Below, one piece after another: positions 6,906 through 61,045 of a stretch of DNA of 64,000 bases. The DNA comes from Escherichia phage UGJNEcP1, in sequence record OV754623, one strand, 5' to 3'. Positions within the stretch are counted from its first letter, which is position 1. The number at the start of each line of letters is the position of its first letter. Made by a program: the position numbers and the translations under genes. A model generated the notes under the pieces. That model had not been told where the DNA came from. It saw only the letters and a list, made by a program, of their open reading frames with translations, and did no database searches.

Positions 6906-6924
6906 TTTGTTCTCCGTTTGTTTT

Positions 6925-6963
6925 GATAGGACTACTATAACATAGTCCTACCAAGATGTAAAC
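6925..6963 (-). promoter_or_regulatory. PeSL-type early promoter
   Basis: gataggactactataacatagtcctac cassette + GTTTAC. Confidence 0.6.
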
Positions 6964-7199
6964 TACCGATTGTGTTTTAAATGTTGATAAAGCTCTTCAA
7001 CTTGTTTAGGGTCCAAAACAATTAAGTCATTTTCTTGACGAAGATAAATCCATCCCTTATCCCCAGGGCCATTTTTACAAAACATCACCGTCGTCATATC
7101 GTCATCTTCAGCGCTTTCAGGTAAAAGTTCAAGTACACCGTCTTCAGATTTTCCAGTATAATCGTAAAGCATAATATCCTCACATAATCTCGTTAACAT
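6963..7199 (-). CDS. hypothetical protein (78 aa)
   Basis: ORF on coding strand, overlaps upstream gene end. Confidence 0.5.
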   Translation of the reverse strand: MLTRLCEDIMLYDYTGKSEDGVLELLPESAEDDDMTTVMFCKNGPGDKGWIYLRQENDLIVLDPKQVEELYQHLKHNR

Positions 7200-10552: not shown

Positions 10553-11011
10553 CTAGATTTTAATCACTGCTTTAGAAGCTTTTCCTGGTAGTCGTTTATT
10601 GTTAATAATAGCCATTCTGCATTGAAGAGTCTTCATTTTGAATGCTGGATTTTCGCGACAAACTGTAAGTCCTAACCAAAGATTTCCATCAGTTATTTCT
10701 AAACGGCCTGGGCGATATTCGACACCTTCGACAAAATCTTCATCAACATCTGGACGTGCCGGCATTGATAAAAATTCTGCAACTTCTTTAACATGATTTT
10801 TTACTTTATGAAATAATTCAAAAACGTAATTCTCATCTATTTCTCTCTGGATGGCACGATCTAAGAGATGTTGAGAATACTTGATATGAAAGCCTGGTAG
10901 TCCAAGAGACTTTGCAGCATCTTTTATACTGGCATTTATTTTGCGGAACTCCGTTTCAAAGATTCGACGGAGTTTATTACGGCGGATAAAAACGTCTGAA
11001 TTGATAGTCAT
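10553..11011 (-). CDS. regB: RegB site-specific endoribonuclease
   Basis: 152 aa; MTINSDVFIRRNKLRR...GRLEITDGNLWLG...RLPGKASKAVIK matches T4 RegB as recalled. Confidence 0.8.
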   Translation of the reverse strand: MTINSDVFIRRNKLRRIFETEFRKINASIKDAAKSLGLPGFHIKYSQHLLDRAIQREIDENYVFELFHKVKNHVKEVAEFLSMPARPDVDEDFVEGVEYRPGRLEITDGNLWLGLTVCRENPAFKMKTLQCRMAIINNKRLPGKASKAVIKI

Positions 11012-11030
11012 TTTGATTTCTCCTCTAGTT

Positions 11031-11068
11031 GACAGGTCTATAGTAACACAACTAGAGGAGAAGTAAAC
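11031..11068 (-). promoter_or_regulatory. PeSL-type early promoter upstream of regB with SD-complementary spacer
   Basis: ACTAGAGGAG at 11051-11060 is the inverted repeat of the regB ribosome-binding region at 11021-11030. Confidence 0.6.
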
Positions 11069-14481: not shown

Positions 14482-14500
14482 AATTTCCTCCAAGTAGTTG

Positions 14501-14538
14501 ATGAATGTATAGTATCAAAACCCTTGGAGGAAGTAAAC
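14501..14538 (-). promoter_or_regulatory. PeSL-type early promoter upstream of denV with SD-complementary spacer
   Basis: CTTGGAGG at 14524-14531 complementary to the denV Shine-Dalgarno region CCTCCAAG at 14488-14495. Confidence 0.6.
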
Positions 14539-17506: not shown

Positions 17507-17527
17507 AATATTCTCCTCATGTTTTAA

Positions 17528-17564
17528 TAGGACTACTATAACATAGTCCTATCAGTTTGTACAC
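17528..17564 (-). promoter_or_regulatory. PeSL-type early promoter (variant -35)
   Basis: taggactactataacatagtcctatc hairpin cassette. Confidence 0.5.
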
Positions 17565-17783
17565 TTATTTTGACATTTCTTCGATGTCACGACGATACCC
17601 ATCACGAACTTCACGAAGAGCTTCAAGGCCACACATAGGCTCGATACCAGTAATGTGAACTTGATTAATCTGATACTCTACATCTTCTAACTGAGCGAAA
17701 ACATAACGACGTTCCGCTGCACAACCAGGTTTAGCTTTGCCGAAACGTTTATTCAAAGTAGTCATTTTTATATCTCCATTCAC
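17565..17783 (-). CDS. hypothetical protein (72 aa or shorter)
   Basis: ORF downstream of promoter 17795-17833. Confidence 0.45.
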   Translation of the reverse strand: MNGDIKMTTLNKRFGKAKPGCAAERRYVFAQLEDVEYQINQVHITGIEPMCGLEALREVRDGYRRDIEEMSK

Positions 17784-19082: not shown

Positions 19083-19089
19083 TTAATTT

Positions 19090-19128
19090 GATAGGACTAC
19101 TATAACATAGCCCTATCTTGTTGTAAAC
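19090..19128 (-). promoter_or_regulatory. PeSL-type early promoter
   Basis: gataggactactataacatagccctatc + GTTTAC. Confidence 0.6.
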
Positions 19129-19132
19129 TGTT

Positions 19133-19330
19133 TTAGCAAGAATAACTAGATGATACCCAGCCTTGAACAGTAATACTATTATTTGATAACGAGATTGCGT
19201 CCTGGAGATTCAGACCTGCGTTATCTTCAATCCACAATGTAACTTCTTCACGCTCTTCGGTTGCAATCTGGAACAGGTTTTCCAGAGCAGCTACTGCCGT
19301 ACGTACAGCACAATCTAATTCACGGGACAT
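19133..19330 (-). CDS. small protein, WVSSSxxC family member 3 (65 aa)
   Basis: Ends ...QGWVSSSYSC-stop; paralog of the two upstream genes. Confidence 0.55.
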   Translation of the reverse strand: MSRELDCAVRTAVAALENLFQIATEEREEVTLWIEDNAGLNLQDAISLSNNSITVQGWVSSSYSC

Positions 19331-22193: not shown

Positions 22194-22227
22194 GATTACT
22201 ATAACATAAACTTACTTAGATGTAAAT
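22194..22227 (-). promoter_or_regulatory. early promoter-like element (-35 ATTTAC)
   Basis: TATAGT-type -10 and near-consensus -35. Confidence 0.45.
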
Positions 22228-22380
22228 TATTTCAACGTCACCTTTAGCCGCTTTATAACCTTCAGCCCAAGATACAACAGAGTTTTTATCCGAGGATTCA
22301 AATTCAGGCATTGGACTTTCACCAATATTCACACAGTATGTTTCTTCATTTTCATCGAACCAAATAATTAAAGTAGTCAT
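22216..22380 (-). CDS. small hypothetical protein (54 aa), not in ORF track
   Basis: ATG at 22378-22380 behind a promoter/leader cassette near-identical to the one at 58621-58680. Confidence 0.4.
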   Translation of the reverse strand: MTTLIIWFDENEETYCVNIGESPMPEFESSDKNSVVSWAEGYKAAKGDVEIIYI

Positions 22381-22401
22381 TTTGTTTACTCCACTGTAGT
22401 T

Positions 22402-22440
22402 GATAAGTCTATAGTATCACCGTCCTTGGTGCTTGTACAT
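22402..22440 (-). promoter_or_regulatory. PeSL-type early promoter/leader cassette (copy A)
   Basis: Near-identical over ~40 nt to 58621-58660. Confidence 0.55.
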
Positions 22441-22448
22441 CATTATTT

Positions 22449-22754
22449 TTAATTTTTCCAACTTAACAACTTGTAGTGTCCTTCATTCATACGTGGTTTA
22501 TCCCAAGAAATACTAATATATGATTCGTTGTCAATAGAAGTCGCCGGGTTTTTCTCTACCGTAAGACCTTCACTTTCCAGCCATTCAATAGTATTTGCGC
22601 ATAAATCAGAAGAACACCTCATCGGGAACCGGCAAGATTTTTCACCTTTAGCTGCAGTGTTATACATCTTTTCTAAAATACGCTTTTGCACGTTTTTAAA
22701 AATAGTTTCAGCAGATTCTTCAGATTTTTTATTCAGTTCAGTGTAAAGACTCAT
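22449..22754 (-). CDS. hypothetical protein (101 aa)
   Basis: ORF downstream of promoter 22776-22811. Confidence 0.5.
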   Translation of the reverse strand: MSLYTELNKKSEESAETIFKNVQKRILEKMYNTAAKGEKSCRFPMRCSSDLCANTIEWLESEGLTVEKNPATSIDNESYISISWDKPRMNEGHYKLLSWKN

Positions 22755-24229: not shown

Positions 24230-24306
<77 letters not shown>

Positions 24307-24309
24307 GAT

Positions 24310-24384
24310 TGGTGACCCTGGCTGGTTTCGATCCAGCTACCTATCAGTTATGAGCTGACAGCTCTCCCATTGAGCTACAGGGCC
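24310..24384 (-). tRNA. tRNA with CAU anticodon (Ile-lysidine type or Met), CCA encoded
   Basis: Acceptor GGCCCTG/CAGGGTC, D-stem GCTC/GAGC, anticodon loop CTCATAA, T-stem GCTGG/CCAGC; 3 nt from tRNA-Arg. Confidence 0.75.
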
Positions 24385-25832: not shown

Positions 25833-25847
25833 TTACTCATTTGTTTT

Positions 25848-25886
25848 GATAGGACTACTATAATATAATCCTATCAGCATGTAAAC
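25848..25886 (-). promoter_or_regulatory. PeSL-type early promoter
   Basis: gataggactactataatataatcctatc hairpin + GTTTAC. Confidence 0.6.
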
Positions 25887-25888
25887 TA

Positions 25889-26152
25889 TTAAATACCAGC
25901 TTCGCGTTTAACATAATCGACGTAAGCTTGGATAGCTTTCTTGCTGGTAATTTTTACCTGGCCACGTCCATTGCCTTCTTTAGAGTTTTTCTTAACAACT
26001 ACATTACCATCTTTAACACCCCATACATGGACGTAAGTACCGATGTTTCGGTCGTAGAACATTGCATGGTCGTTGTTGTAAGAGAATGATTCGTAGTTCT
26101 CTGTCAGAGTAGAAGATTGAGATTCGGCGATAAATTCTTTATAGGTTTTCAT
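25889..26152 (-). CDS. ipI: internal protein I-like (leader MKTYKEFIAE)
   Basis: Capsid-targeting leader; located next to 57B as ipI is in T4; promoter 26178-26216 upstream. Confidence 0.65.
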   Translation of the reverse strand: MKTYKEFIAESQSSTLTENYESFSYNNDHAMFYDRNIGTYVHVWGVKDGNVVVKKNSKEGNGRGQVKITSKKAIQAYVDYVKREAGI

Positions 26153-55894: not shown

Positions 55895-56707
55895 ATGATC
55901 AAAGAACAACTTTTGAAAGAAGCTCAGAACATCGAGACTTCAGTTGCTCTTAATAGTGTTTTCGAATCAGTAGAACTGTCTCCGGACGTTAAAGCTAATT
56001 TCAGCACTGTATTCGAAGCCACCGTTAAGCAGGAAGCAGTCAAACTGGCTGAATCTCATATCAAAGCCATCGCCGAAAAGGCCGAAGAAGAAGTTGAAAA
56101 GGCTAAAGAAGATGCTGAAGAGAAAGCTGATAAAAAATTGGCTGAACAAGCTTCTAAATTCCTAGACCATCTTGCAAAAGAATGGCTCGCAGAAAACCAA
56201 ATCGCAGTTGATAAAGGCATTAAAGCTGATTTGTTCGAATCCATGCTTGGTGGTCTGAAAGAACTGTTTGTTGAACATAACGTTGTTGTTCCAGAAGAAT
56301 CTGTAGATGTTGTAGCAGAAATGGAAGAAGAGCTGGCCGAACATAAAGAAGAAACCGCTCGTTTGTTCGAAGAAGTTACCAAACGTGATGCATATATCAA
56401 TTACGTTCAGCGTGAAACCGCTATTAATGAAAGCGTAAAAGACCTGACTGAATCTCAGAAAGAAAAAGTTATTGGCCTGGTTGAAGGTATGGATTATTCT
56501 GACGCATTTGGTACTAAGTTAACTGCTATTGTAGAAATGGTTAAAGGTTCTACTAAAGAAGAAGCCGCTATTACCGAAAGTATAAATACAGTTGACAATG
56601 ACGCTGCCGGTCTTAATTTTGTTGCCGAAGCAGTTGACACTACCACAACTCAGGTAGAACAGAATTCTAATGTAAGTTTATATGCGAAAGTCGCATCTCG
56701 TTTCTAA
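55895..56707 (+). CDS. 22: prohead core scaffold protein gp22
   Basis: 270-aa acidic coiled-coil protein; late promoter at 55857-55864. Confidence 0.9.
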   Translation: MIKEQLLKEAQNIETSVALNSVFESVELSPDVKANFSTVFEATVKQEAVKLAESHIKAIAEKAEEEVEKAKEDAEEKADKKLAEQASKFLDHLAKEWLAENQIAVDKGIKADLFESMLGGLKELFVEHNVVVPEESVDVVAEMEEELAEHKEETARLFEEVTKRDAYINYVQRETAINESVKDLTESQKEKVIGLVEGMDYSDAFGTKLTAIVEMVKGSTKEEAAITESINTVDNDAAGLNFVAEAVDTTTTQVEQNSNVSLYAKVASRF

Positions 56708-56724
56708 TTTAAAGGTTAACACAA

Positions 56725-58293
56725 ATGACTACTATCAAAACTAAAGCTCAGCTCGTAGACAAATGGAAAGAACTGCTGGAAGGTGAAGGCCTGCCGGAAA
56801 TCGCTAATAGCAAGCAGGCTATTATCGCTAAAATCTTCGAAAACCAGGAAAAAGATTTCGAAGTATCCCCTGAATATAAAGACGAGAAAATCGCTCAGGC
56901 ATTTGGTTCTTTCTTGACCGAAGCTGAAATTGGTGGTGACCATGGTTATAATGCTCAGAACATCGCAGCAGGTCAAACCTCTGGTGCAGTAACCCAGATT
57001 GGGCCAGCAGTTATGGGTATGGTTCGTCGTGCTATTCCTAATCTGATCGCTTTTGGTATTTGTGGTGTTCAGCCTATGAACAGCCCTACCGGTCAGGTAT
57101 TTGCTCTCCGTGCAGTATATGGTAAAGACCCTATCGCTGCTGGCGCTAAAGAAGCTTTCCATCCGATGTATGCCCCAGACGCGATGTTCTCTGGTCAGGG
57201 TGCTGCTAAGAAATTCCCAGCTCTGGCTGCTGACACTACTACTGTTGTAGGTGATATCTATACTCACTTCTTCCAAGAAACTGGTACTGTATATCTGCAA
57301 GCTTCTGCTATCGTAACACTTGATTCTGGTGCAACTGATGCAGCTAAATTAGATGCAGAAGTTAAGAAACAAATGGAAGCTGGTGCACTAGTAGAAATCG
57401 CTGAAGGTATGGCTACTTCTATCGCTGAACTCCAGGAAGGTTTCAACGGTTCTACCGATAACCCATGGAATGAAATGGGCTTCCGTATCGATAAACAAGT
57501 TATCGAAGCTAAATCTCGCCAGCTGAAAGCTGCTTACTCTATCGAATTGGCACAAGACCTCCGTGCAGTACACGGTATGGATGCTGATGCTGAACTGAGC
57601 GGTATTCTGGCTACAGAAATTATGCTAGAAATCAACCGTGAAGTTGTTGATTGGATTAACTACTCAGCACAGGTTGGTAAATCTGGTATGACCCTGACTC
57701 CGGGTTCTAAAGCTGGTGTATTTGACTTCCAAGACCCGATTGATATCCGTGGTGCTCGTTGGGCCGGTGAAAGCTTTAAATCTCTGTTGTTCCAGATTGA
57801 TAAAGAAGCAGTTGAAATTGCTCGTCAAACCGGTCGTGGTGAAGGTAACTTCATTATCGCTTCCCGTAACGTAGTTAACGTACTGGCTTCAGTTGATACT
57901 GGTATTTCTTACGCTGCACAGGGTCTGGCTTCTGGTTTTAATACCGACACTACTAAGTCTGTATTTGCCGGTGTACTTGGTGGTAAATACCGCGTATACA
58001 TCGACCAGTATGCTAAACAGGATTACTTCACCGTTGGTTACAAAGGCGCTAACGAAATGGATGCAGGTATTTACTATGCTCCTTACGTTGCACTTACCCC
58101 ACTGCGTGGTTCCGATCCTAAGAACTTCCAGCCGGTAATGGGCTTTAAAACTCGTTACGGTATCGGTGTTAACCCGTTTGCTGAAAGTTCCCTGCAGGCT
58201 CCAGGTGCTCGCATCCAGTCCGGTATGCCGTCTATCCTGAACAGCCTTGGTAAGAACGCTTACTTTAGACGCGTCTACGTTAAAGGAATTTAA
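56725..58293 (+). CDS. 23: major capsid protein gp23
   Basis: 522 aa; near-identical to T4 gp23 as recalled (AQLVDKWKELLEGEGLPEIANSKQAIIAKIFENQEKDF...). Confidence 0.97.
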   Translation: MTTIKTKAQLVDKWKELLEGEGLPEIANSKQAIIAKIFENQEKDFEVSPEYKDEKIAQAFGSFLTEAEIGGDHGYNAQNIAAGQTSGAVTQIGPAVMGMVRRAIPNLIAFGICGVQPMNSPTGQVFALRAVYGKDPIAAGAKEAFHPMYAPDAMFSGQGAAKKFPALAADTTTVVGDIYTHFFQETGTVYLQASAIVTLDSGATDAAKLDAEVKKQMEAGALVEIAEGMATSIAELQEGFNGSTDNPWNEMGFRIDKQVIEAKSRQLKAAYSIELAQDLRAVHGMDADAELSGILATEIMLEINREVVDWINYSAQVGKSGMTLTPGSKAGVFDFQDPIDIRGARWAGESFKSLLFQIDKEAVEIARQTGRGEGNFIIASRNVVNVLASVDTGISYAAQGLASGFNTDTTKSVFAGVLGGKYRVYIDQYAKQDYFTVGYKGANEMDAGIYYAPYVALTPLRGSDPKNFQPVMGFKTRYGIGVNPFAESSLQAPGARIQSGMPSILNSLGKNAYFRRVYVKGI

Positions 58294-58332
58294 TGCTTTA
58301 ACGTTAAAATACATAACCTTATGGGAGACTTC

Positions 58333-58358
58333 GGTCTCCCATTTTTGGTTTTATTTCT
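58333..58358 (+). terminator. rho-independent terminator after gene 23
   Basis: GGGAGAC-TTCG-GTCTCCC followed by ATTTTTGGTTTT. Confidence 0.8.
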
Positions 58359-58620
58359 GTGCAATTTCGATGTAAGTTTTCAAAATATTTTGCCAATTAG
58401 GCATACCTTCTTGGACATATGCCGGAGAACCGTCTTTGTTTTTGAATGACGCAAGTTTATCAGTGGCCCAATAACCTTTAGCTCGAGCTTCAGAATCAAC
58501 TTTCATCCATACTTTGTTGAAGGCATTACCATTAACTTTTGCACCATATTTTTCTACTAACTTAACTGCTTCAGCTTCCAGAACTTTTAAAGTATCTCGT
58601 AAGAAACGTGCTTTAGTCAT
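58351..58620 (-). CDS. hypothetical protein (89 aa) inserted between genes 23 and 24
   Basis: Minus-strand ORF with its own early-type promoter/leader cassette (58621-58680). Confidence 0.55.
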   Translation of the reverse strand: MTKARFLRDTLKVLEAEAVKLVEKYGAKVNGNAFNKVWMKVDSEARAKGYWATDKLASFKNKDGSPAYVQEGMPNWQNILKTYIEIAQK

Positions 58621-58641
58621 TTTGTTTACTCCTCTGTAGTT

Positions 58642-58680
58642 GATAAGTTTATAGTATCACATACCAAATACGTTGTAAAC
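58642..58680 (-). promoter_or_regulatory. PeSL-type early promoter/leader cassette (copy B) inside the late region
   Basis: GTTTAC -35; leader identical to copy at 22381-22420. Confidence 0.6.
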
Positions 58681-58686
58681 AATCTT

Positions 58687-58694
58687 TATAAATA
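58687..58694 (+). promoter_or_regulatory. late promoter TATAAATA (gene 24)
   Basis: Exact octamer ~28 nt upstream of gene 24. Confidence 0.65.
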
Positions 58695-58721
58695 ATCTAT
58701 ATCACATAAGGAAAAAATGCA

Positions 58722-60005
58722 ATGAGTAAAATCCAAAAATTATTGCGTGAATCTACAACGTCTACTAGCAACTCAATTGGTCGCCCAAATCTCGTTGCTT
58801 TGACTCGCGCTACGACTAAATTAATATATTCTGACATTGTAGCAACACAAAGAACTAATCAACCTGTTGCTGCTTTTTATGGTATCAAATATCTTAACCC
58901 AGATAATGAATTCACATTTAAAACTGGTGCTACTTATGCGGGTGAAGTTGGATATGTAGACCGAGAAAAAATTACTGAGCTCACAGAAGAATCAAAAGTC
59001 ACACTAAATAAAGGTGATTTTTTCAAATATAATAATATCGTCTATAAGGTGTTAGAAGATACACCATTTGCAGATATTCAAGAAAGTGATCTAGAATTAG
59101 CTCTTCAGATTGCAGTCGTTCATTTAAAGGTACGGTTATTTTCAGATGCAGCGGTAACAAGCAAATTTGAAAGCTCTGATAGCGAAATTTCTGATGCAAG
59201 ATTCCAGATTAATAAATGGCAAACTTCAGTCAAATCTCGTAAACTTAAAACTGGTCTCACTGTTGAATTAGCGCAAGATTTGGAAGCGAATGGATTTGAT
59301 GCCCCTAACTTCTTAGAGGATTTGCTTGCTACTGAAATGGCTGATGAAATTAATAAAGATATTCTTCAGTCTTTAATTACTGTATCGAAACGTTATAAAG
59401 TTACTGGAATTACTGACACCGGATTTATTGACTTGAGTTATGCATCAGCTCCAGAAGCAGGTCGTTCATTATATCGAATGGTGTGTGAAATGGTATCACA
59501 CATTCAAAAAGAAACAACTTATACTGCAACGTTTTGTGTAGCCTCAGCTCGTGCAGCTGCTATTCTTGCTGCTTCCGGTTGGTTAAAACATAAGCCAGAA
59601 GATGACAAGTATCTTTCACAAAATGCTTATGGATTCTTGGCAAATGGATTACCTCTTTACTGCGATACCAACAGCCCGTTAGATTATGTTATTGTGGGTG
59701 TTGTAGAAAATCTCGGCGAAAAAGAAATTGTAGGGTCCATCTTTTATGCTCCATACACTGAAGGAGTAGATTTAGACGACCCGGAACATGTCGGTGCATT
59801 TAAAGTTGTAGTTGATCCAGAAAGCTTGCAACCGTCTATCGGATTATTGGTTAGATACGCTTTATCAGCAAATCCTTACACAGTAGCAAAAGACGAAAAA
59901 GAAGCGAGAATAATTGATGGTGGGGACATGGATAAAATGGCAGGACGTTCAGACTTGTCTGTTTTACTCGGTGTTAAATTGCCTAAAATTATTATAGATG
60001 AATAA
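58722..60005 (+). CDS. 24: capsid vertex protein gp24
   Basis: 427 aa gp23 paralog; late promoter at 58687-58694. Confidence 0.95.
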   Translation: MSKIQKLLRESTTSTSNSIGRPNLVALTRATTKLIYSDIVATQRTNQPVAAFYGIKYLNPDNEFTFKTGATYAGEVGYVDREKITELTEESKVTLNKGDFFKYNNIVYKVLEDTPFADIQESDLELALQIAVVHLKVRLFSDAAVTSKFESSDSEISDARFQINKWQTSVKSRKLKTGLTVELAQDLEANGFDAPNFLEDLLATEMADEINKDILQSLITVSKRYKVTGITDTGFIDLSYASAPEAGRSLYRMVCEMVSHIQKETTYTATFCVASARAAAILAASGWLKHKPEDDKYLSQNAYGFLANGLPLYCDTNSPLDYVIVGVVENLGEKEIVGSIFYAPYTEGVDLDDPEHVGAFKVVVDPESLQPSIGLLVRYALSANPYTVAKDEKEARIIDGGDMDKMAGRSDLSVLLGVKLPKIIIDE

Positions 60006-60006
60006 A

Positions 60007-60036
60007 CAAAAAAGGGACCTTACGGTCCCTTTTTTC
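60007..60036. terminator. bidirectional rho-independent terminator between convergent gene 24 and rnlB
   Basis: AAAAAAGGGACC-TTAC-GGTCCCTTTTTTC, A/T tracts on both sides. Confidence 0.85.
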
Positions 60037-60037
60037 G

Positions 60038-61045
60038 TTATGATACTAATTCAATCCATGCAGGACGCAGAACATCTTGCACCATTCGGACTAATTCTTT
60101 CTTAACAAGATTCGGATTATCAGATGATGTTAATACAATACCTTCACGAGAAGTTTCTTCCAGAATATCTTGAACAGTCAATCCCATCACTTTGCCAAAA
60201 TCTTTTGGCGTTACAGTCCCAATCTTAGAAATAACATTATTAACACGATTTAATGTAACATAACAAGCTAGAACATCAAGCAAGTTTTTGTCAATTTCGG
60301 TTAATGGAACCTGAGTTTTAATAGGCTTATCAGACTTTTTCTTTTCACTGAATTTAGAGTTCTTGCACTTAATAGCTACACGAGTACCGTTTGGCAGCCA
60401 TTTAGGGAAACAAGGCTTCAGAACATAACCTTCTGCCGTATTATCGCCAATAACATTAGCATCAAATACACAATTATTTGCTTCTACAAGGTCTTCTGAC
60501 GCAGTAGCATTATAAGCGGCTAAGACAGAATCAAGGTCGTTTGGAATCATGATAAGAGCATCAAATGTGCCACGACCAAGCATTGGTGCCGTTTTAAAAC
60601 CAAATTCATTACAGAAATCTTGCATTTCGTAATCGCTCATGTAATAAGTATCACCGCTTTCCGCGTTTATGATGATATCGAACACATAGAAATCTTTTTC
60701 ACCGTAGTCAACACCTTTCTGAATTCCACCACCAGCGAATTCACCAAAGACTTGATATGTCACCGGCACTGAAGTTGAAATACTGTCCATGACTTCTTGA
60801 ACGGCTTTAATAGCTTTATCATACTTCTTGAGTACGATTTCATAGCCATAAAAATCTTCTGCTGGAAGAATAGGGCCTGTGCGCTTGGCGCATGTGACGT
60901 TGTCACGTTCAATTATTAACGAGAAGTTGGTCCCATGGATTTTCTCACGTGCTACCCAAACACCAGTAGTCAAACCATTAGTGTAGAGTTTTTCAATAAA
61001 CTTAGAGTTGTAGTGGTTTTCAAGACTGCTGTATTTCTTAAACAT
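60038..61045 (-). CDS. rnlB: RNA ligase 2
   Basis: Ligase motif I KIHGTNF; 335 aa. Confidence 0.85.

What the first reader, a model, noticed from the sequence alone, without database searches (positions are those of the whole stretch)
58351..58685. Early-type promoter/leader cassette duplicated from the accessory region into the g23/g24 junction
About 40 nt covering the promoter -10 region, leader and start context at 58621-58660 are near-identical to 22381-22420, roughly 36 kb away. Here the cassette drives an 89-aa minus-strand ORF between the major capsid gene and gene 24, where T4 carries the homing endonuclease segD as I recall. This looks like a cassette-mediated insertion of a small early gene into the late structural operon.
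Basis: partly seen in the sequence, partly recalled or inferred. Interest (0 to 1): 0.65.

Follow-up and report, generated by a model that had tools for sequence, protein, structure and literature searches.

The report
Shared early promoter-leader patch, resident gene
A small early gene of unknown function sits backwards between the capsid genes 23 and 24 of this T4-like phage. It is an old resident there, and only its 46-base promoter-leader stretch was copied to or from a second gene 36 kb away, which is an ordinary event in these phages.

Summary
58615-58660(-) and 22375-22420(-) match at 44 of 46 bases, from the -10 box through the leader and Shine-Dalgarno to ATGACT. Shuffles give no such match. 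Among 15 early promoter-leader cassettes in the window, the next closest pair is 84% identical.

The interpretation, a cassette-mediated insertion of the gene, is not supported. The window is a Mosigvirus. Orthologues of the 89-aa ORF (31-71% aa identity) lie at the same g23/g24 junction in Gaprivervirus, Dhakavirus, some Tequatrovirus and three metagenomic T-even lineages. All share the -35 box set back-to-back with the g24 late promoter, and all share the g23 terminator hairpin. Their leaders differ from the one here.

So the gene and its promoter are ancestral at this site. Only the -10-to-codon-2 patch was homogenised with the ORF54 cassette, within the Mosigvirus lineage. In RB69 and phage 55 the two patches are 46/46 identical. 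This fits the published PeSL-type recombination zone.

The junction itself is polymorphic: empty in T2, segD in T4, ORF plus segD in JK45.

The protein is real (purifying selection, confident fold) but has no informative homologue. It is dispensable, being frameshifted in RB69.

Interest is low to moderate.

The parts
58615..58660 (-). 46-nt shared patch: extended -10 (TG at 58659-58658, TACTAT at 58656-58651), initial transcribed region, GAGGAG (58634-58629), ATGACT (58620-58615)
   Evidence: It is 44/46 identical to 22375-22420. The next best cassette in the window matches at 38/46.
58674..58680 (-). -35 element GTTTAC(A) of the junction early promoter; not part of the duplicated patch
   Evidence: The promoter scan finds TTTACA-N17-TACTAT with TG. 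The element is conserved in all junction orthologues and upstream of T4 segD.
58687..58694 (+). T4-type late promoter TATAAATA for gene 24, set back-to-back with the early -35 box, 6 nt away
   Evidence: Read directly from the sequence. The block TTATTTATAAA is invariant in alignment A3 and present in the T4, T2, JK45, WG01 and VR20 junctions.
58351..58620 (-). ORF89, a small early accessory protein of unknown function (phrog_6003)
   Evidence: ORF list. PHROG match at E = 2e-45. Purifying selection: pN 0.18 against pS 0.70 versus L015. AlphaFold2 mean pLDDT 89.4. Orthologues at the same junction.
58321..58352 (+). Hairpin (9 bp, UUCG loop) plus T-run: intrinsic terminator of gene 23. The same hairpin read on the minus strand ends the ORF89 unit but lacks a proper U-run.
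   Evidence: The terminator scan finds it on the + strand only. Folding gives z = -4.2 (+) and -4.6 (-). It is 30-33/33 conserved in lineages where the ORF is 66-70% identical.
22375..22420 (-). Paralogous 46-nt patch in front of ORF54
   Evidence: Its own promoter, TGTACA (22439-22434)-N17-TACTAT, and the sequence upstream are unrelated to the junction.
22216..22380 (-). ORF54 (phrog_5461; RB69ORF145c). It lies between frd.3 and RB69ORF146c (e.8 further upstream) in RB69, and between e.6 and e.8 in T2.
56725..58293 (+). Gene 23, major capsid protein (flank)
58722..60005 (+). Gene 24, capsid vertex protein (flank)

Best explanation
The g23/g24 intergenic region of this Mosigvirus holds an old, self-contained early transcription unit that points against the late genes.

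Its anatomy is as follows:
- A T4-type sigma-70 early promoter, GTTTAC-N17-TG-n-TACTAT, sits back-to-back with the gene 24 late promoter TATAAATA.
- From it comes a roughly 24-nt unstructured leader with a GGAG ribosome-binding site 8 nt before the ATG.
- This drives an 89-aa protein.
- The unit ends at the hairpin that serves, on the other strand, as the gene 23 terminator.

How it would work (inferred from the sequence, not measured): early in infection, host RNA polymerase makes this short leftward mRNA. Late in infection, the gp55/gp33 machinery uses TATAAATA to make gene 24 mRNA rightward. The two promoters therefore never compete in time.

The gene and its -35/late-promoter block were inherited vertically at this site in many T-even lineages. 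The gene was lost in T2-like phages, replaced by segD in T4-like phages, and joined by segD in JK45-like phages.

The 46-nt identity with the ORF54 cassette is a separate and much younger event. It is a short ectopic gene-conversion (or PeSL-type) exchange between two members of the dispersed family of early promoter-leader cassettes. It replaced only the -10-to-codon-2 stretch in the Mosigvirus lineage. The ORF54 cassette is the more likely donor.

The protein is a non-essential early accessory protein with three helices and a beta-hairpin. Most likely it acts on a host target, but that target is unknown.
For: Shown by tool results:
- The promoter, ribosome-binding site, ORF and hairpin are all present. 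The leader is unstructured (-1.3 kcal/mol, z = +1.3).
- Orthologues occupy the same junction in Gaprivervirus VR20, Dhakavirus WG01, Dhakavirus phage 04086, Tequatrovirus JK45 with segD directly downstream, and metagenomic contigs at 71, 70 and 61% aa identity.
- The segment running from the g24 start through the late promoter to the -35 box is 38-39 of 51-52 conserved in the three metagenomic lineages. The hairpin is 30-32/33 conserved. The patch is only 26-29/46.
- In those lineages the ORF and the neighbouring g24 5' end are equally diverged, 67-71% nt.
- The RB69 ORF54 cassette is 46/46 identical to the junction cassette of phage 55. Both differences seen in the window are therefore derived.
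- Tequatrovirus ORF54 genes (T2, slur04, GEP001, EP01; 86-91% nt identity to the window's ORF54) carry a different leader. They still share GACTTATCAA and ATGACT (GEP001 reads GATTTATCAA), characters absent from other junction leaders. This favours ORF54 as the donor.
- PeSL crossovers were mapped experimentally between the -10 box and the SD/ATG (PMC2839356). PeSLs are described as carrying the SD and start codon at their 3' end, with consensus TTTACW-N17-TAYWAT in T4/PST (PMC4122927).
- The gene is real: pN 0.18 against pS 0.70 and pLDDT 89.
- The gene is dispensable: it is frameshifted in RB69 and split in mogra.
Against: - No transcription data were available, so promoter timing, the start site and termination at the hairpin are inferred from sequence only.
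- On the minus strand the hairpin lacks a U-run, so read-through antisense into gene 23 is possible.
- The direction of exchange is uncertain. L015 (71% orthologue) also starts ATGACTAAA, and its leader 3' half (CAACTAAGGAGAGTAAA) resembles the shared patch.
- Both outgroups have a TGTTATTAT -10 box. The 5' 26 nt of the patch match the T4 denV cassette at 25/26. A third cassette could therefore be the source of both copies.
- The family consensus is strong (up to 84% between other pairs), so part of the identity needs no copying.
Confidence: 0.62

Rival explanations
1. A promoter-bounded cassette (a PeSL mini-circle or similar) carrying ORF89 was inserted recently from the accessory region into the g23/g24 junction, bringing its own promoter.
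For: - The 46-nt identity lies exactly in the zone where PeSL crossovers were mapped.
- The junction is polymorphic among T-evens: empty in T2, segD in T4, ORF plus segD in JK45.
- Distant family members occur in non-T4 phages as stand-alone promoter-plus-gene units. The gene must therefore have moved horizontally at some time.
Against: - Orthologues at the same site span 31-71% aa identity and have unrelated leaders.
- ORF divergence equals g24 divergence in the nearest lineages.
- The -35 box, the late-promoter block and the terminator are orthologous across lineages.
- No second flanking cassette is present, and no stem-loop of the PeSL kind.
- Any insertion therefore long predates the patch identity.
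Confidence: 0.06
2. No copying occurred. The two leaders converged because both are selected toward the same optimal T-even early promoter, initial transcribed sequence and ribosome-binding-site consensus.
For: - There are 15 stereotyped cassettes in the window, sharing TG-n-TAnnnT, AGACCTATCAA, a short A-rich leader and GGAG.
- Cassettes at about 85% identity precede unrelated genes (denV, alc, regB) in other genera.
- The leader is unstructured, as expected for efficient initiation.
Against: - The focal pair is 96% identical (100% between RB69 ORF54 and the phage 55 junction), against at most 84% for the other 104 pairs.
- Identity includes non-consensus characters: CTT instead of CCT, and the exact spacer TAAACAAA.
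- Identity ends sharply at both borders.
- Orthologous promoters in sister lineages function with quite different leaders.
Confidence: 0.1
3. The same gene-conversion event, in the opposite direction or from a third donor. Either the junction leader is the original and overwrote the ORF54 leader in the Mosigvirus ancestor, or both were overwritten by a denV-like master cassette.
For: - The L015 junction orthologue already has ATGACTAAA and a CAACTA..GGAG..GTAAA leader.
- Tequatrovirus ORF54 has a different, longer leader.
- The T4 denV cassette shares 25/26 of the 5' half.
Against: - GACTTATCAA is shared by nearly all ORF54 cassettes in two genera (GEP001 reads GATTTATCAA) but by no non-Mosigvirus junction cassette.
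- The L014 and L012 leaders are unlike the patch.
Confidence: 0.22

Closest known systems
PeSL (promoter-early stem-loop) regulatory cassettes of T4-type phages (Arbiol et al. 2010, PMC2839356; Comeau et al. 2014, PMC4122927)
   Same: Both have a sigma-70-like early promoter matching TTTACW-N17-TAYWAT, with the Shine-Dalgarno and start codon at the 3' end. Both are dispersed, near-identical copies that serve as sites of exchange. The identity tract spans the -10-to-ATG zone, where PeSL crossovers were mapped.
   Different: Neither copy has the defining stem-loop/terminator next to or over the promoter. One copy lies inside the conserved late structural block, where the papers say PeSLs are rare. 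Here the outcome was a short patch replacement at a resident gene, not insertion, deletion or swap of an ORF.
T4 segD locus (free-standing GIY-YIG homing endonuclease between genes 23 and 24)
   Same: Same intergenic site and the same antisense orientation. The orthologous upstream block is also the same: late promoter TATAAATA followed by a TTTACA-N17-TATTAT promoter-like site. In JK45 the small ORF and segD lie in tandem behind this promoter.
   Different: ORF89 has no endonuclease domain and no detectable relation to SegD. It is the older occupant, and segD is the add-on or replacement.
Phage morons / small early accessory genes of T-even hyperplastic regions
   Same: A short gene with its own promoter and a terminator. 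It is non-essential, diverges fast, and has distant homologues in unrelated phage types.
   Different: It lies between two essential capsid genes rather than in a hyperplastic region, and it has been syntenic there across several genera.

Membership tests
PeSL cassette | Sigma-70-like early promoter (T4/PST consensus TTTACW-N17-TAYWAT) | tested here: met
   TTTACA-N17-TACTAT with TG at 58679-58651(-). TGTACA-N17-TACTAT at 22439-22411(-).
PeSL cassette | Shine-Dalgarno and start codon of the downstream gene at the 3' end of the element | tested here: met
   GAGGAG at 58634-58629 and ATG at 58620. The same layout is found at 22394-22380.
PeSL cassette | Stem-loop (terminator/attenuator) just upstream of, inside or over the promoter | tested here: not met
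   The inverted-repeat scan found none at 22360-22500. At the junction it found only an 8-nt pair (TTGTTTAC/GTAAACAA, 45 nt apart), which is not beyond chance. Other promoters in the window do have 10-nt arms.
PeSL cassette | Lies next to indels or ORF replacements between close relatives | tested here: inconclusive
   The junction is polymorphic across genera: empty in T2, segD in T4, ORF plus segD in JK45. Within Mosigvirus the ORF is constant. ORF54's neighbours vary between phages.
PeSL cassette | Recombination between copies (mini-circles, chimeric cassettes) | not testable with these tools
   This needs inverse PCR or long-read data from infected cells. Only the identity tract is seen here.
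T4-type early promoter | GTTTAC -35 box, 17-nt spacer, extended -10 box, AT-rich upstream region; active immediately after infection with unmodified host polymerase | tested here: inconclusive
   The sequence features are all present. Activity and timing were not measured.
Free-standing homing endonuclease (seg/mob) | GIY-YIG or HNH nuclease domain | tested here: not met
   No Pfam, NCBIfam or PHROG nuclease hit. The predicted fold is three helices plus a beta-hairpin.
phrog_6003 (unknown function) | Full-length HMM match | tested here: met
   E = 2.1e-45, residues 1-89 against profile positions 1-90 of 90.

The most novel reading that the evidence does not exclude
ORF89 and its orthologues form a fast-diverging early anti-host or anti-defence factor, kept in a protected niche between two essential capsid genes. 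That niche is also a recombination boundary that segD exploits. The promoter-leader patch shows that regulatory cassettes of the hyperplastic regions also homogenise promoters inside the conserved structural block. A by-product is that T4 segD, reported to lack a promoter, actually sits behind the conserved early promoter of this niche.
Probability: 0.2. Interest if true: 0.5.

Novelty: new member of a known kind. Interest (0 to 1): 0.25.

Why it matters
This is a clean natural example of a regulatory patch (-10 box to start codon) moving between distant T-even promoters without moving the genes. It extends the published PeSL picture into the late structural block.

It also shows why repeat identity alone should not be read as gene insertion. 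Synteny across genera gave the opposite answer.

The g23/g24 junction emerges as a small variable niche with four observed states: empty, small ORF, small ORF plus segD, and segD alone. A conserved early promoter is present in the occupied states examined; the empty T2 site has none. This may explain how segD is expressed in T4.

None of this changes current understanding of T4-like phages. The 89-aa protein remains of unknown function.

Tried and rejected
- Pfam gave only a sub-threshold DUF4859 hit (E = 0.003, 17.9 bits against a cut-off of 22.6). I rejected it.
- NCBIfam and PADLOC gave nothing.
- A PDB sequence profile search gave E >= 0.1 only.
- Foldseek against BFVD found only a family member, at 31% identity.
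- The afdb50 library was unavailable.
- A profile search of 1.84 billion representatives found 11 clusters. The long proteins among them (P0018, P0020, P0022) are repeat or low-complexity artefacts, and P0021 is a chimeric contig.
- Rfam gave only sub-threshold chance hits.
- An exact-pattern scan of IMG/VR found a single contig, an ORF54 locus, so it did not help to show the cassette in front of other genes.
- Codon 2 (ACT) was considered as a marker of donor direction. It was weakened when L015 was found to start ATGACTAAA with a different leader.
- The 8-nt complementarity between the -35 box and the leader was considered as an SD-masking hairpin. I judged it within chance, and it is absent from the paralogue.
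- A literature search for T4 segD transcription data found nothing usable.

Full report
**Identity of the window**

The region 56700-60100 is 98.9% identical to Escherichia phage 55, a Mosigvirus of the Tevenvirinae. About 150 records match at 95% or more. The gene order is 22, 23, an antisense small ORF, 24, rnlB, 24.2/24.3, hoc, inh. This is the T4 late head-gene block.

**The observation**

On the minus strand, 58615-58660 and 22375-22420 align without gaps at 44 of 46 positions. The two differences are at 58649 (A against G) and 58633 (A against T). No shuffle of the window gave a match within three mismatches.

The tract starts at the extended -10 box (GTGATACTAT). It runs through the initial transcribed region, the GGAG ribosome-binding site and the spacer TAAACAAA, and ends after ATGACT. 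Flanks on both sides are unrelated.

**Family background**

A pattern scan found 15 early promoter-leader cassettes in the window, all on the minus strand. They share a very stereotyped layout: GTTTAC, a 17-nt spacer, TG-n-TAnnnT, AGACCTATCAA or AGTCCTATCAA, a short A-rich leader, GGAG and ATG.
- Among the 105 pairs, the focal pair is 96% identical. The next best is 84%. Each focal copy is 83% identical to the cassette at 11006-11049.
- In the phage database the 46-mer finds relatives at about 85% in front of denV in T4, and in front of alc, regB and other genes elsewhere.

So part of the similarity is family consensus, but the pair is a clear outlier that needs a copying event.

**Anatomy of the junction**

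Read on the minus strand, the elements are:
- the gene 24 start, on the other strand;
- the late promoter TATAAATA, at 58687-58694 on the plus strand;
- six bases later, the -35 box GTTTAC (58680-58675);
- a 17-nt spacer, then TG and TACTAT (58656-58651);
- a leader of about 24 nt with essentially no predicted structure;
- GAGGAG, with its GGAG core ending eight bases before the ATG at 58620;
- the 89-codon ORF;
- a 9-bp hairpin at 58321-58342.

The terminator scan calls the hairpin only on the plus strand, where it has a UUCG loop and a T-run. It is therefore first of all the gene 23 terminator.

**Is the ORF a recent arrival? No.**

tblastn found the protein at 90% identity or more in about 120 Mosigvirus records. 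It found the protein at 30-38% identity in about 119 further records. Those I opened all have it at the same junction and in the same orientation:
- Gaprivervirus VR20;
- Dhakavirus WG01 and phage 04086;
- Tequatrovirus JK45, where segD follows three bases after its stop codon.

The protein database added intermediates at 71, 70 and 61% identity, again between gp23 and gp24 homologues.

All of these share the late-promoter/-35 block and the hairpin, and they differ from -10 to ATG. Identity to the window, for the three metagenomic lineages:

| Segment | Identity to the window |
|---|---|
| g24 start through late promoter to the -35 box | 38-39 of 51-52 |
| Hairpin | 30-32 of 33 |
| ORF (codons 3-89) | 66-70% nt |
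| 46-nt patch | 26-29 of 46 |

(All.)

In those lineages the first 390 nt of gene 24 are 67-71% identical to the window, the same divergence as the ORF. That is the signature of co-inheritance, not of insertion.

The site is nevertheless polymorphic in Tequatrovirus:
- T2 has only the hairpin followed directly by TATAAATA.
- T4 has segD behind the conserved promoter block.
- JK45 has both the small ORF and segD.

**Age and direction of the patch**

The RB69 ORF54 cassette (RB69ORF145c) is 46/46 identical to the junction cassette of phage 55. The two differences in the window are therefore recent. Only 6 database records carry the window's exact junction variant.

Tequatrovirus ORF54 genes (T2, slur04, GEP001, EP01; 86-91% nt identity in the coding part) keep the same upstream promoter, GACTTATCAA (GATTTATCAA in GEP001) and ATGACT. 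Their -10 box (TTATTAT) and their leader are different and the leader is longer.

The patch therefore arose within the Mosigvirus lineage. Two characters bear on direction:
- GACTTATCAA occurs in nearly all ORF54 cassettes (GEP001 has GATTTATCAA) and in no non-Mosigvirus junction cassette. This favours ORF54 as the donor.
- L015 already starts ATGACTAAA with a partly similar leader, and the 5' 26 nt match T4 denV at 25/26. The reverse direction, or a third donor, therefore remains possible.

**Relation to the literature**

Arbiol et al. 2010 and Comeau et al. 2014 describe PeSLs. These are early promoters with a stem-loop, ending in the SD and start codon of the next gene. In PST/T4 the promoter consensus is TTTACW-N17-TAYWAT. 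Crossovers were mapped between the -10 box and the SD or ATG.

The present tract lies exactly in that zone, and both promoters fit the consensus. Neither copy has the stem-loop, however. The result here is a patch replacement at a resident gene, not an ORF insertion. The authors note that such elements are less frequent in structural regions.

**The protein**

The evidence that it is a real gene:
- It is under purifying selection: pN 0.18 against pS 0.70 versus L015.
- With a 10-sequence alignment, AlphaFold2 gives mean pLDDT 89.4: helices at 3-25, 31-48 and 76-88, and a beta-hairpin at 56-70.

A full HMMER scan of 1.84 billion representatives finds only 11 clusters. Two distant members lie in contigs that do not look T4-like. 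One sits next to a GpJ-type tail-tip gene, behind its own terminator and a TTGACG-N17-TATATT promoter.

The gene is frameshifted in RB69 and split in mogra, so it is dispensable.

My best guess is a non-essential early protein that acts on a host component. This is inference only.

**Verdict**

The repeat is real. The "cassette-mediated gene insertion" reading is not supported. What is there is an ancestral antisense early gene at a small variable niche between genes 23 and 24. Its -10-to-codon-2 stretch was homogenised with another early cassette by short ectopic exchange. That process is already described in principle for T4-type phages.

Noticed in passing
L011 2734-2823 (T4 NC_000866 107233-107322), minus strand: Upstream of T4 segD lies the same block as at the window's junction: late promoter TATAAATA on the other strand, then ATTTACA-N17-TATTAT preceded by TG. 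A 2010 review (PMC2988022) states that no segD-specific promoter could be identified. Comparative data suggest segD sits behind the conserved early promoter of this niche.
   Followed up: partly
L007 and L005 (Shigella phage JK45, MK962757): JK45, classified as a Tequatrovirus, is mosaic around this site. Its gene 24 5' end is 385/390 identical to the window (Mosigvirus type). Its junction ORF is Dhakavirus type (31% aa) and is followed by segD. Its ORF54 is 161/162 identical to the window and carries the shared leader patch. The junction is therefore a recombination boundary.
   Followed up: partly
window 14485-14494 / 14523-14532 (denV upstream); L010 375-430 (T4 denV): A perfect 10-nt inverted repeat (TTCCTCCAAG/CTTGGAGGAA) encloses the denV early promoter's -10 box and includes the Shine-Dalgarno. 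T4 has the analogous CTCCTGTAG/CTACAGGAG. Read-through transcripts would mask the ribosome-binding site, while transcripts from the internal promoter would not.
   Followed up: partly
window 6918-6969, 17519-17570, 19083-19134, 25841-25892 (and relatives): This is a sub-family of early promoters in which a 10-nt palindrome (GATAGGACTA ... TAGTCCTATC) brackets the -10 box. Copies are 77-100% identical over 52 nt. These look like true PeSL-type promoter-plus-stem-loop elements in the early region.
   Followed up: no
L016 9292-9532 (RB69 NC_004928 109291-109531): In RB69 the junction gene is broken into RB69ORF188c and RB69ORF189c by an insertion and a 1-nt deletion. Its leader patch carries three private changes. 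This could be decay of a dispensable gene or errors in an old sequence.
   Followed up: partly
L019 3502-3584 (T2 LC348380 102501-102583): The T2 g23/g24 junction is an empty site of 83 nt. It holds the gene 23 terminator hairpin, followed directly by TATAAATA for gene 24. There is no early promoter and no ORF.
   Followed up: yes
window 58321-58353 and orthologous loci: The terminator hairpin and its flanks (AAAAATGGGAGACCGAAGTCTCCCA) are the most conserved part of the junction. They are 30-33/33 identical in lineages whose flanking ORF is only 66-70% identical.
   Followed up: partly
window 58622-58629 / 58675-58682: There is an 8-nt perfect complementarity between the -35 region (TTGTTTAC) and the leader just before the ATG (GTAAACAA). 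It is probably chance, and it is absent at the 22.4-kb copy.
   Followed up: partly
L017 2860-3255; L018 3001-3264: Distant homologues of ORF89 (P0019, P0017) lie in contigs that do not look T4-like. One is next to a GpJ-type tail-tip gene and is preceded by a terminator and a TTGACG-N17-TATATT promoter. The family has therefore moved between phage types.
   Followed up: partly
window 24230-24384 (-): tRNA-Arg(TCT) and tRNA-Met(CAT) genes lie in the early region, in the same order as in RB69.
   Followed up: no
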